Of a stretch of 64,000 bases of DNA, positions 55,401 to 58,400 are shown piece after piece (within the stretch, counting starts at the first letter, position 1; the number at the start of each line of letters is the position of its first letter). The stretch lies in assembly GCF_057098645.1 (NCBI RefSeq), contig NZ_CM169472.1; one strand, written 5' to 3'. The position numbers were made by a program.

Positions 55401-58400
55401 CTTGTTGGCTAGCCCGTCTCGCGTCATATCACTGATTTGCGAGAAGTAAATCAGATGCACCACCAATAGCACCGAGAACAGTACCGCGCTGACCATTAAG
55501 ATCACTGTGGTACTCAATTTCATCGGACGTTTGCGTAACATGCGGTAGGGCAATGAATGTCTCATCAGCTTCCTTGTGTGACAAATTTCTTAAGCATTAT
55601 CTCTGATGAGGCGGGTAATTCAAAGGGAGTAAGAATGATTGGCTATATAGGGGAAGAGACTCTGGCAACGGAAACTGCCAGTGCTGTATGAAGATTCCGG
55701 GGCTATGCTTATAGTGAAAACCATACTGATGAGAGAGGGAAGGTCATGGATCAGGCGCTACTGGACGGGGGTTATCGCTGTTATACCGGCGAAAAGATCG
55801 ATGTCTATTTCAACACTGCGATATGTCAGCATTCTGGCAATTGCGTACGTGGCAACGGCAAGTTATTTAATCTCAAACGAAAGCCGTGGATCATGCCGGA
55901 TGAAGTCGACGTTGCCACTGTGGTGAAAGTGATTGATACGTGCCCGAGTGGTGCGCTGAAATACCGTCATAAATAAGCGAGGGTAAAATGGAAATACGCG
56001 AAGGCTACAATAAATTTTACATTAATGACGAACAAGGCAAGCAAATCGCTGAAATTGTCTTTGTGCCGACCGGAGAGAATTTAGCGATTATCGAACATAC
56101 CGATGTCGATGAAAGCCTGAAAGGGCAAGGGATCGGTAAACAGCTGGTTGCGAAAGTCGTGGAAAAAATGCGTCGGGAAAAACGAAAAATTATCCCATTA
56201 TGTCCATTTGCGAAACACGAATTTGATAAAACGCGGGAGTATGATGATATTCGCAGTTGATGGAAGAGTACAGATTCACGATATTTTTCATGCTCTCCGC
56301 GGAGTGATGCAGGAGAGCATCTGAAGGGTAGGGGGATGCACAAAGAATGGGCAGAGAGAGCGTTTTTTTGTCCCAAGTCATCCCCTTTACTGAGCAAAAA
56401 AAAGAATATCTCCTATATGAGAATCATCAATCGGGGTTAATAAGTTTTGCGTCCCCAGAGCGTTTAATATTGATAGGAGTCATATTATGGAAGGTAAAAA
56501 CAAGTTCAATACTTATGTTGTTTCTTTTGATTATCCATCATCTTATTCCTCAGTGTTCTTAAGGTTAAGATCATTGATGTATGATATGAATTTCTCTTCT
56601 ATCGTGGCTGATGAATATGGGATACCACGACAATTGAATGAAAATTCCTTCGCAATAACGACATCGTTAGCCGCAAGTGAAATCGAAGATTTAATCAGGC
56701 TTAAATGCTTAGACTTACCGGATATTGACTTTGACCTCAACATTATGACAGTTGATGACTATTTCCGTCAGTTTTACAAATAGCCAGGAAGGATAAGAAG
56801 AACATAAAAAATGGCACTATTCTCTAAAATATTAATTTTTTATGTGATTGGTGTGAACATATCCTTTGTCATTATCTGGTTTATCTCACATGAGAAAACA
56901 CATATTCGTTTACTTAGTGCATTCCTGGTCGGAATAACCTGGCCAATGAGTCTGCCTGTGGCATTACTTTTTTCTCTCTTTTAGGAGCTGTAGTTGAGTG
57001 GACCCGCTGGTTATCGTGAAACGAAGCGTCTCTCCTCAAAACTGGATTTGCGGAACGATGAACGAAGCAGTCGCCTGACTGCTTCGTTCATTAAAGTGAA
57101 ATTTATTTCTGTGGGCGCATCGCCGGGAAGAGAATAACGTCGCGAATAGTATGGCTGTTAGTAAACAGCATAATCATTCGGTCGATACCAATACCCAGAC
57201 CAGCGGTTGGCGGCAGACCATATTCCAGCGCAGTCACGTAATCTTCGTCATAGAACATGGCTTCGTCGTCACCTGCAGCTTTAGCGTTAACCTGTTCCTG
57301 GAAACGTTCAGCCTGATCTTCTGCGTCGTTTAATTCGCTAAAACCATTACCGATTTCACGACCACCGATGAAGAATTCAAAACGGTCGGTGATTTCCGGG
57401 TTAACATCATTACGGCGCGCCAGCGGGGACACTTCTGCCGGATATTCCGTAATAAAGGTTGGCTGAATCAGATGTGCTTCTGCCACTTCATCAAAGATCT
57501 CCGTGACAATACGTCCCAGCCCCCAGCTTTTCTCTACCGTAATTCCGATAGATTCAGCTAATGCTTTAGCAGCATCAAAATTATCCAGGTCGGCCATATC
57601 GGTTTCTGGACGATATTTTTTGATTGCTTCGCGCATGGTGAGTTTTTCAAACGGTTTGCCGAAATCAAACACATGCTCGCCATAAGTGACTTTAGTGGTA
57701 CCCAGAACCTCTTGTGCCAGGGTGCGGAACAGTGACTCTGTCAGTTCAATCAAATCGTGGTAATCCGCATACGCCATGTAGAGTTCCATCATTGTGAACT
57801 CAGGATTATGGCGAACAGAAATACCTTCATTACGGAAGTTACGGTTGATTTCGAATACCCGTTCAAAACCGCCTACAACCAGACGTTTCAGATACAGCTC
57901 CGGCGCGATACGCAGATACATATCTAAATCCAGAGCATTATGATGGGTAATAAACGGGCGAGCAGATGCCCCACCTGGAATTACCTGCATCATCGGGGTT
58001 TCTACTTCCATAAAGCCGCGCGCGACCATGAACTGACGGATAGCGGCCAGAATTTTTGAACGGACAACAAACGTTTGACGGGATTTATCGTTAGCGATGA
58101 GGTCCAGATAACGTTGACGATAACGGACTTCCTGATCCTGCAGACCATGGAATTTATCTGGTAAAGGACGTAGTGCTTTTGTCAGCAGGCGCAACTCAGT
58201 ACAGTGAATGGAAAGCTCGCCCGTTTGCGTCTTAAACAGCGTACCGCGGGCACCGATAATGTCACCCAGATCCCATTTTTTAAACTGATCGTTATAAACA
58301 CCTTCTGGCAGGCTATCTCGTGCGACGTACAGTTGAATACGGCCACCGACATCCTGCAACGTTACAAAGGAGGCTTTCCCCATGATACGACGGGTCATCA

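What the first reader, a model, noticed from the sequence alone, without database searches (positions are those of the whole stretch)
56487..56984. ghoS-ghoT type V toxin-antitoxin pair, with the toxin absent from the ORF track
The 98-aa ghoS is followed 27 nt later by a 57-codon ORF for a small two-helix membrane peptide matching what I recall of GhoT. In this system the antitoxin is an RNase that cleaves the toxin mRNA, so the locus is easy to miss with protein-only callers. The pair is flanked by a strong shared terminator hairpin toward lysU.
Basis: partly seen in the sequence, partly recalled or inferred. Interest (0 to 1): 0.4.

Follow-up and report, generated by a model that had tools for sequence, protein, structure and literature searches.

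The report
Known E. coli ghoS-ghoT toxin-antitoxin pair
This is the ordinary, already characterised GhoS/GhoT type V toxin-antitoxin operon of Escherichia coli, with both proteins identical to the laboratory-strain versions, and the small toxin gene was missing from the ORF track only because it is 57 codons long.

Summary
ghoS (56487-56783, 98 aa) is followed 27 nt later by ghoT (56811-56984, 57 aa) on the + strand. Both score far above the Pfam cut-offs: GhoS 138.8 bits, GhoT_OrtT 90.4 bits. GhoS is 98/98 identical to the solved YjdK/GhoS structure 2LLZ. GhoT is 57/57 identical to K-12 b4559. ghoT, the spacer and the 3' flank match MG1655 base for base. RefSeq annotates both genes under every listed match, and 5,318 of 5,426 complete E. 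coli genomes hold a match. The window is 100% identical to O145:H28 strains.

The toxin is absent from the ORF track because it falls under a 60-aa cut-off, not because of the RNA-level mechanism. The "strong shared terminator" is a real 15-16 bp hairpin (57057-57092) with no U-tract. It lies 11 nt from the lysU stop, about 73 nt from the ghoT stop, and outside the ghoST module shared with a relative at another locus. It is best read as lysU's terminator first.

Verdict: already known, low interest. Minor extras: the pair is a 34.5% G+C islet, the family is essentially confined to Escherichia, and a divergent copy lies next to speF/potE-like genes.

The parts
56475..56479 (+). Shine-Dalgarno-like AGGAG, 7 nt before the ghoS ATG
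   Evidence: Read from the sequence. The function is inferred.
56487..56783 (+). ghoS: 98-aa endoribonuclease antitoxin (formerly YjdK), with R28 present
   Evidence: PF11080 at 138.8 bits. 98/98 identical to PDB 2LLZ. Annotated ghoS in RefSeq. R28 present; the literature calls it the key catalytic residue. Three GCT (MqsR-type) sites at 56607, 56699 and 56707.
56784..56810 (+). 27-nt purine-rich ghoS-ghoT spacer: GGAAGGA at 56787-93 and AAGAAG at 56795-800, a probable weak ribosome-binding site for ghoT
   Evidence: Sequence. The block GAAGGATAAGA(A/G)G is conserved in E. whittamii and L003, and AAGAGG is conserved in L005. The RBS role is inferred.
56811..56984 (+). ghoT: 57-aa two-helix membrane toxin (formerly YjdO), with F38 present and no GCT site
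   Evidence: PF10753 at 90.4 bits. 57/57 identical to K-12 b4559 and DNA 100% identical to MG1655. Hydropathy, F38 and zero GCT sites. Literature: F38R abolishes toxicity, and ghoT mRNA lacks GCU sites.
57057..57092 (.). Perfect 15-bp hairpin (16 pairs with a closing G-U) and 4-nt loop between the convergent ghoT and lysU genes. Probably the lysU terminator, possibly bidirectional.
   Evidence: No U-tract and no consensus terminator. Identical in MG1655, conserved in E. whittamii and absent from L003 and L005. It lies outside the 56464-57013 module shared with L003.
56464..57013 (+). Extent of the ghoST module that aligns (81.8% nt) with a divergent copy sitting in a different genomic neighbourhood (L003)
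   Evidence: blastn of L003 against the window. G+C is 34.5% for ghoST against 52.7% for the whole window.

Best explanation
The region is the chromosomal ghoST operon of E. coli, the founding type V toxin-antitoxin system. ghoS and ghoT lie on one strand 27 nt apart. Their co-transcription from a promoter upstream of ghoS comes from the literature and was not mapped here. GhoT is a 57-aa inner-membrane peptide with two helices. When made, it damages the membrane, lowers ATP and proton-motive force, and produces 'ghost' cells and slowed growth. GhoS is a stable, Cas2-like (ferredoxin-fold) sequence-specific endoribonuclease. It does not bind GhoT. It cuts the ghoT part of the mRNA in A/U-rich stretches, so the toxin is not translated. 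Under stress the MqsR toxin, a GCU-specific mRNA interferase, is reported to cut the ghoS part, which has three GCU sites here, and to spare ghoT, which has none. That would tip the balance toward toxin. Shown here: the identity of both proteins with the characterised ones, the gene order, the key residues, the hydrophobic architecture and the GCU asymmetry. Taken from the literature by identity of sequence: RNase activity, toxicity and MqsR control.
For: Pfam GhoS 138.8 bits and GhoT_OrtT 90.4 bits. GhoS is 98/98 identical to PDB 2LLZ. GhoT is 57/57 identical to K-12 b4559. The stretch from the yjdJ stop to the lysU stop is 99% identical to MG1655; the six ghoS differences are synonymous, and ghoT, the spacer and the 3' flank are identical. 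RefSeq annotates ghoS and ghoT under every listed match, in the same neighbourhood dcuS-yjdI-yjdJ-ghoS-ghoT-lysU-dtpC-cadA. R28 and F38 are present, there are two hydrophobic segments, and GCT counts are 3 in ghoS and 0 in ghoT. Mechanism from papers: GhoS specifically cleaves ghoT mRNA, is not labile and is Cas2-like with R28 critical (PMC4344625; PMC4010927; PMC3997798). GhoT has two transmembrane domains, F38R abolishes toxicity, and ghoT lacks GCU sites (PMC4344625). The pairing is conserved in relatives: E. whittamii, and a 77%-identical GhoS followed after 26 nt by a 57-aa GhoT at a different locus.
Against: Nothing contradicts the identification. Caveats on mechanism follow. The absence of GCT from the 174-nt ghoT is not statistically unusual on its own: 9.5% of composition-matched shuffles also have none. 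It is also not conserved, since the L003 ghoT has two GCT sites. GhoS's recognition sequence is described as 'rather undefined'. No sigma-70 consensus promoter was found in the 226-nt region upstream of ghoS; the only + strand hit lies inside the end of yjdJ. The two primary papers were not in the held library, so their details are cited second-hand.
Confidence: 0.97

Rival explanations
1. The genes are GhoS and GhoT, but the physiological mechanism differs from the published model. GhoS might be a general or purine/pyrimidine-transcript RNase whose effect on ghoT is incidental, or the MqsR-to-GhoT cascade might not operate in vivo.
For: The recognition sequence is called 'rather undefined', and GhoS overproduction lowers 20 other transcripts. 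The GCU asymmetry is statistically weak, with 9.5% of shuffles giving zero sites. It is also not conserved in the L003 relative, whose ghoT has two GCT sites.
Against: Several papers report specific cleavage of ghoT mRNA and rescue from toxicity. The ghoS-ghoT pairing, order and spacer of about 26-27 nt are kept at a different genomic locus. That argues for a functional couple.
Confidence: 0.1
2. The hairpin at 57057-57092 belongs to lysU only. It would be lysU's terminator or 3' stabiliser and not a shared ghoST terminator, with ghoST transcription ending elsewhere or by Rho.
For: It lies 11 nt from the lysU stop and about 73 nt from the ghoT stop. It is outside the module shared with L003, which ends at 57013. 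Neither strand has a U-tract, and the scan found no consensus terminators.
Against: A perfect palindromic stem forms equally on both transcripts. No other strong structure or terminator lies between ghoT and lysU.
Confidence: 0.45
3. The 57-codon ORF is a chance ORF in AT-rich DNA, and only ghoS is a real gene.
For: It is short and lies in a 35% G+C region. It does not appear in a 60-aa ORF list.
Against: It scores 90.4 bits to a curated Pfam family. It is identical to an annotated and experimentally studied protein. Forty of 57 residues are invariant across loci whose DNA is only 72-82% identical.
Confidence: 0.01
4. It is a type I-like system, in which the small hydrophobic toxin is controlled by an antisense or cis-encoded RNA rather than by GhoS.
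For: GhoT resembles type I toxins in size and hydrophobicity. Promoter-like hexamers occur on the minus strand inside the locus.
Against: No Rfam family matches in 56000-57300 apart from one chance-level hit at E = 0.3. The number of promoter-like sites equals the shuffle expectation, 4 against 3.4. The 11-bp inverted repeat at the ghoT start is not significant and not conserved. A protein antitoxin gene is present and conserved alongside ghoT.
Confidence: 0.02

Closest known systems
GhoS/GhoT (YjdK/YjdO) type V toxin-antitoxin system of E. coli K-12 (Wang et al. 2012, Nat Chem Biol 8:855; cited through PMC4344625, PMC4010927 and PMC3997798)
   Same: Essentially everything. Both proteins are 100% identical, and the order, spacer, neighbours and downstream hairpin are the same.
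   Different: Only six synonymous substitutions in ghoS and six substitutions in the upstream intergenic region relative to MG1655. The host is an O145:H28-type strain rather than K-12.
OrtT (YdcX), orphan GhoT-like toxin of E. coli
   Same: Same Pfam family PF10753, same length of 57 aa, two transmembrane helices and a conserved F38.
   Different: OrtT is only 63% identical to GhoT, has no adjacent antitoxin, is not neutralised by GhoS, and its mRNA carries two GCU sites. The ORF here is identical to GhoT and sits directly after ghoS.
Cas2 CRISPR-associated endoribonucleases
   Same: According to the literature, GhoS has a ferredoxin-like fold and shares catalytic-type residues with Cas2.
   Different: There is no CRISPR context here. 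GhoS acts on the mRNA of its own operon partner. It was not tested as a Cas2 family member by sequence, and the Pfam scan gave only PF11080.
Type I toxin-antitoxin systems (Hok/Sok, TisB/IstR, Ldr/Rdl)
   Same: A small hydrophobic membrane toxin whose synthesis is blocked at the mRNA level.
   Different: The antitoxin here is a protein RNase, not an antisense RNA. No known RNA family was found at the locus.

Membership tests
GhoS/GhoT type V toxin-antitoxin system | The antitoxin belongs to the GhoS endoribonuclease family (PF11080; YjdK fold) | tested here: met
   138.8 bits against a cut-off of 21, covering 7-94 of 98 aa. 98/98 identical to PDB 2LLZ.
GhoS/GhoT type V toxin-antitoxin system | The toxin belongs to the GhoT/OrtT family (PF10753): 57 aa with two hydrophobic helices | tested here: met
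   90.4 bits against a cut-off of 22.1 over the full length. Identical to K-12 GhoT. The hydropathy profile shows two segments.
GhoS/GhoT type V toxin-antitoxin system | Bicistronic arrangement: ghoS first and ghoT immediately downstream on the same strand | tested here: met
   27-nt spacer on the same strand. The same arrangement is annotated in MG1655, and it is conserved in E. whittamii and L003. Co-transcription itself was not measured here.
GhoS/GhoT type V toxin-antitoxin system | Key residues: GhoS R28 (catalysis) and GhoT F38 (toxicity) | tested here: met
   Both are present. Their roles come from the literature.
GhoS/GhoT type V toxin-antitoxin system | GhoS cleaves ghoT mRNA and does not neutralise the toxin by binding it | not testable with these tools
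   Reported for the identical K-12 proteins. Carried over by sequence identity.
GhoS/GhoT type V toxin-antitoxin system | GhoT is toxic: membrane damage, ATP loss and ghost cells | not testable with these tools
   Reported for the identical K-12 protein. Carried over by sequence identity.
GhoS/GhoT type V toxin-antitoxin system | MqsR (GCU-specific) can cut ghoS but not ghoT: GCU sites in ghoS and none in ghoT | tested here: met
   GCT at 56607, 56699 and 56707 in ghoS, and none in ghoT or the spacer. This matches the literature statement. It is weak as statistics (9.5% of shuffles give zero) and is not conserved in L003.
OrtT orphan toxin | A GhoT-like toxin with no adjacent antitoxin; about 63% identical to GhoT | tested here: not met
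   The ORF is 100% identical to GhoT, not OrtT, and ghoS lies 27 nt upstream.
Intrinsic (Rho-independent) terminator, for the 57057-57092 hairpin | A G+C-rich stem-loop followed directly by a run of U | tested here: inconclusive
   The stem is strong. No U-tract passes the consensus scan on either strand, and the scan found no sites.

The most novel reading that the evidence does not exclude
The roughly 550-bp, 34% G+C ghoST unit may be a self-contained, horizontally acquired module that has landed at least twice next to amino-acid decarboxylase/antiporter acid-stress genes. In Escherichia it sits by cadBA-lysU. In another enterobacterial genome it sits between speF/potE-like and cadB/cadA-like genes. 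In some lineages ghoS is decaying or fused to ghoT. The 'MqsR-proof' lack of GCU in ghoT would then be specific to E. coli rather than a property of the family. If so, the MqsR cascade is a recent add-on, and the module's ancestral role may be tied to acid or polyamine stress loci.
Probability: 0.15. Interest if true: 0.3.

Novelty: already known. Interest (0 to 1): 0.05.

Why it matters
It matters little for discovery. This is the textbook type V toxin-antitoxin pair, found in about 98% of complete E. coli genomes and already annotated by standard pipelines. The practical lesson is for the scan itself: a 60-aa ORF cut-off hides known small toxins such as the 57-aa GhoT, so 'missing from the ORF track' is not a sign of novelty. 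The side observations could interest specialists in toxin-antitoxin evolution, but they are incremental. They are the very narrow taxonomic range, the AT-rich islet, an alternative insertion site by speF/potE, a fused or decayed ghoS-ghoT variant, and the non-conserved GCU asymmetry.

Tried and rejected
(1) The two primary papers (PMC3514572 and PMC3620836) are not held. The exact GhoS cleavage sites could therefore not be mapped onto the sequence, and the mechanism is cited from secondary open-access papers.

(2) NCBIfam gave no hit for either protein. That library has no model that reports them, and this is not evidence against membership, given Pfam and the identity to the reference.

(3) An 11-bp perfect inverted repeat overlaps the ghoT start codon (56802-12 / 56835-45). 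I considered it as a translational or GhoS-recognition hairpin and rejected it. It is not in the minimum-energy fold, z = -0.74, 39 of 200 shuffles fold as well, and its 5' arm changes in E. whittamii and L003 without compensation.

(4) The Rfam scan of 56000-57300 gave only a chance-level viral pseudoknot hit at E = 0.3.

(5) The sigma-70 consensus scan gave no convincing ghoS promoter in the intergenic region, and the hit count equals the shuffle expectation. The promoter was not located.

(6) Search on mobile elements: there were no phage hits. The nine 'plasmid' hits are all E. coli, non-mobilizable records. Eight are 373 kb to 4.9 Mb long, and the three of 4.8-4.9 Mb are evidently mislabelled chromosomes; the ninth is 94 kb. 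I found no evidence for a plasmid- or phage-borne ghoST.

(7) Two scripts failed because locus L002 had not been exported. The K-12 comparison was done with the alignment tools instead.

Full report
**Observation.** The window has an ATG ORF of 98 codons at 56487-56783 on the + strand, and a second ATG ORF of 57 codons at 56811-56984. The gap is exactly 27 nt, CCAGGAAGGATAAGAAGAACATAAAAA. An AGGAG lies 7 nt before the first ATG. The second ORF is preceded by a purine-rich stretch (GGAAGGA...AAGAAG). With the ORF lister's default minimum of 60 aa, the 98-aa ORF appears and the 57-aa ORF does not. That is a sufficient explanation for 'absent from the ORF track'. The 57-aa product has two hydrophobic segments, roughly residues 3-25 and 34-57, separated by the polar loop SHEKTHIR; GRAVY is 1.5.

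**Identity.** Against Pfam, the first protein matches GhoS (PF11080) at 138.8 bits with a curated cut-off of 21. The second matches Toxin_GhoT_OrtT (PF10753) at 90.4 bits with a cut-off of 22.1, over its full length. The first protein is 98/98 identical to the chain of PDB entry 2LLZ, 'uncharacterized protein YjdK', the old name of GhoS. The second is 57/57 identical to the product of b4559 (ghoT) of E. coli K-12 MG1655. At the DNA level, the 845 bases from the yjdJ stop to the lysU stop are 99% identical to MG1655. There are six differences upstream of ghoS and six inside ghoS. The six inside ghoS must be synonymous, because the protein is unchanged. There are no differences in the spacer, in ghoT or in the 3' flank. 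The 851-base query is 100% identical to a series of O145:H28 and O145 chromosomes. Of 5,426 complete E. coli genomes, 5,318 hold a match to ghoST and 5,272 hold at least 80% of it, nearly always once and on the chromosome. RefSeq labels every listed match 'type V toxin-antitoxin system endoribonuclease antitoxin GhoS' and 'toxin GhoT'. The neighbourhood is the standard one: dcuB-dcuR-dcuS / yjdI-yjdJ-ghoS-ghoT / lysU-dtpC-cadA. In the O145 records the convergent lysyl-tRNA synthetase gene is labelled 'lysS' by the pipeline. By position it is lysU, as annotated in MG1655.

**Mechanism.** I could test only sequence features. The biochemistry comes from papers on the identical K-12 proteins. The literature describes GhoT as a membrane-lytic peptide with two transmembrane domains whose toxicity is abolished by F38R. 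It describes GhoS as an antitoxin that is not labile under stress, does not control transcription of the pair, and acts by specifically cleaving ghoT mRNA (PMC4344625). GhoS is a structural homologue of Cas2, with R28 the most important residue for its RNase activity (PMC4010927). It cuts in A/U-rich regions and has a ferredoxin-like fold (PMC3997798). The MqsR toxin, a GCU-specific interferase, is reported to degrade the ghoS part preferentially and so enrich ghoT mRNA, and ghoT mRNA is stated to lack GCU sites. In the window, R28 of GhoS and F38 of GhoT are present. ghoS has three GCT sites (56607, 56699, 56707), and ghoT and the spacer have none. The last point agrees with the literature but is weak evidence on its own, because 9.5% of composition-matched shuffles of ghoT also lack GCT.

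**The hairpin.** A perfect inverted repeat lies between the convergent ghoT and lysU genes. Its arms are 57058-72 and 57077-91, each 15 nt, with a 4-nt loop; one G-U pair more gives 57057-57092. It dominates the predicted fold of both transcripts. The 126-nt region has z = -3.8 on the + strand and -4.6 on the - strand. It is identical in MG1655 and kept in Escherichia whittamii with two changes: the pair next to the base of the stem goes from U-A to C-A, and one loop base changes. It has no run of U on either strand, and the consensus terminator scan reports no sites in 56000-57400. It is 11 nt from the lysU stop codon (57103-57105) and about 73 nt from the ghoT stop. It also lies outside the segment 56464-57013, which is all that aligns with a divergent ghoST copy at another genomic site. 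I therefore read it as lysU's terminator or 3' stabiliser first. A shared bidirectional role is possible but not shown.

**Relatives elsewhere.** The GhoS family is strikingly narrow. A search of about 5.8 billion clustered proteins returned only 47 clusters, and nearly all the named ones are E. coli or Shigella. A conserved 29-nt ghoT pattern matched exactly in only two of 100,044 species-representative genomes, E. coli and E. whittamii. The latter has the same ghoS-ghoT-lysU arrangement. There were no phage matches. All nine 'plasmid' matches are E. coli, non-mobilizable records. Eight of them are 373 kb to 4.9 Mb long, and the three largest are evidently chromosomes.

The most divergent full-length GhoS is P0014, 77% identical, from assembly GCA_902838365.1. 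It is followed after 26 nt by a 57-aa GhoT-family ORF that is 82% identical. That pair lies between speF/potE-like genes (732-aa decarboxylase, 438-aa permease) and cadB/cadA-like genes. Its cadA-like gene is only about 71% identical in DNA to the window's cadA, while ghoST is 82% identical.

In both genomes the pair is an AT-rich islet. In the window it is 34.5% G+C against 52.7% for the window as a whole. In L003 it is 33-35% against 49-51% for speF/potE. In that relative ghoT carries two GCT sites, so the GCU asymmetry is not a conserved property of the family.

A metagenomic lineage (L005-L007, cluster P0042 with 91 member sequences) has a ghoS-like region with no in-frame ATG, K in place of R28, and no stop codon before ghoT. 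This gives one 135-148-aa ORF with an intact GhoT part. It looks like a decaying antitoxin fused to the toxin.

**Other checks.** No known RNA family was found at the locus. An 11-bp inverted repeat over the ghoT start codon is neither thermodynamically significant nor conserved. No convincing sigma-70 promoter was found upstream of ghoS. Aligning the upstream regions of the window, L003 and L005 shows a conserved block ACAAAGAATGG (56340-56350), followed in E. coli by an extra stretch of about 75 nt (about 56352-56426) that the other two lack. I could not assign it a function.

**Verdict.** The locus is the known ghoST type V toxin-antitoxin operon, unchanged at the protein level from K-12, and it is routinely annotated. 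It is not novel. The explanation given for why it is 'easy to miss' is wrong, since the cause is a length cut-off. The 'shared terminator' is an unproven reading of a real hairpin that more probably belongs to lysU. Interest is low.

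Noticed in passing
window 56300-57050: ghoST is an AT-rich islet: 34.5% G+C against 52.7% for the whole window. The same holds for the divergent copy in L003 (33-35% against 49-51% for the flanking speF/potE-like genes). This suggests a foreign or compositionally constrained module.
   Followed up: partly
L003 191-8297 (GCA_902838365.1) and L004: A 77%-identical GhoS and 82%-identical GhoT pair (26-nt spacer) sits between speF/potE-like and cadB/cadA-like genes, not next to lysU. Its ghoT has two GCT sites (L003 4421 and 4432), unlike E. coli ghoT. The organism was not identified, and the conserved ghoT pattern did not find its species among the GTDB representatives.
   Followed up: partly
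L005 980-1457, also L006 and L007 (metagenome contigs; protein P0042, 91 member sequences): The ghoS-like region has lost an in-frame ATG start, has K in place of R28, and has lost its stop codon. It therefore runs straight into an intact ghoT-like part as one 135-148-aa ORF. It lies downstream of an amino-acid permease gene and upstream of an EamA transporter gene. This may be a decaying antitoxin or a natural fusion.
   Followed up: partly
protein P0003 (169 aa, from a 5.0-Mb ENA contig): A gene call with both GhoS and GhoT domains that is 97% identical to E. coli GhoS. The sequence changes frame near the end of ghoS (...FRQFLQVAGKDKKNIKMALFS...). This is presumably a single-base indel or an assembly error that fuses the two ORFs.
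   Followed up: no
window 56340-56426: Upstream of ghoS, the block ACAAAGAATGG (56340-56350) is conserved in the window, L003 and L005. E. coli then has about 75 extra bases (about 56352-56426, with a T7 run and an A8 run) that both relatives lack. No promoter consensus was found here, and the function is unknown.
   Followed up: partly
window 56802-56812 / 56835-56845: An 11-bp perfect A/U-rich inverted repeat overlaps the ghoT start codon. It is not in the minimum-energy fold (z = -0.74) and is not conserved in E. whittamii or L003, so it is most likely chance.
   Followed up: yes
window 57103-58620 (- strand): The convergent lysyl-tRNA synthetase gene is labelled 'lysS' in the 100%-identical O145 RefSeq records. 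By position it is lysU, as in MG1655. This is a naming artefact of automatic annotation.
   Followed up: yes
E. coli genome hits, e.g. H40 NZ_CP100981.1: 108 of 5,426 complete E. coli genomes have no match to ghoST, and 46 more have only a partial match. Strain ET220, for example, keeps just the first 50 nt. What replaced or deleted the locus in these strains was not examined.
   Followed up: no
window 56543-56743 (- strand): A 66-aa antisense ORF lies inside ghoS and is also open in E. whittamii (L009 1889-2089). There is no family match or other evidence that it is a gene. It is probably a by-product of the AT-rich coding sequence.
   Followed up: no
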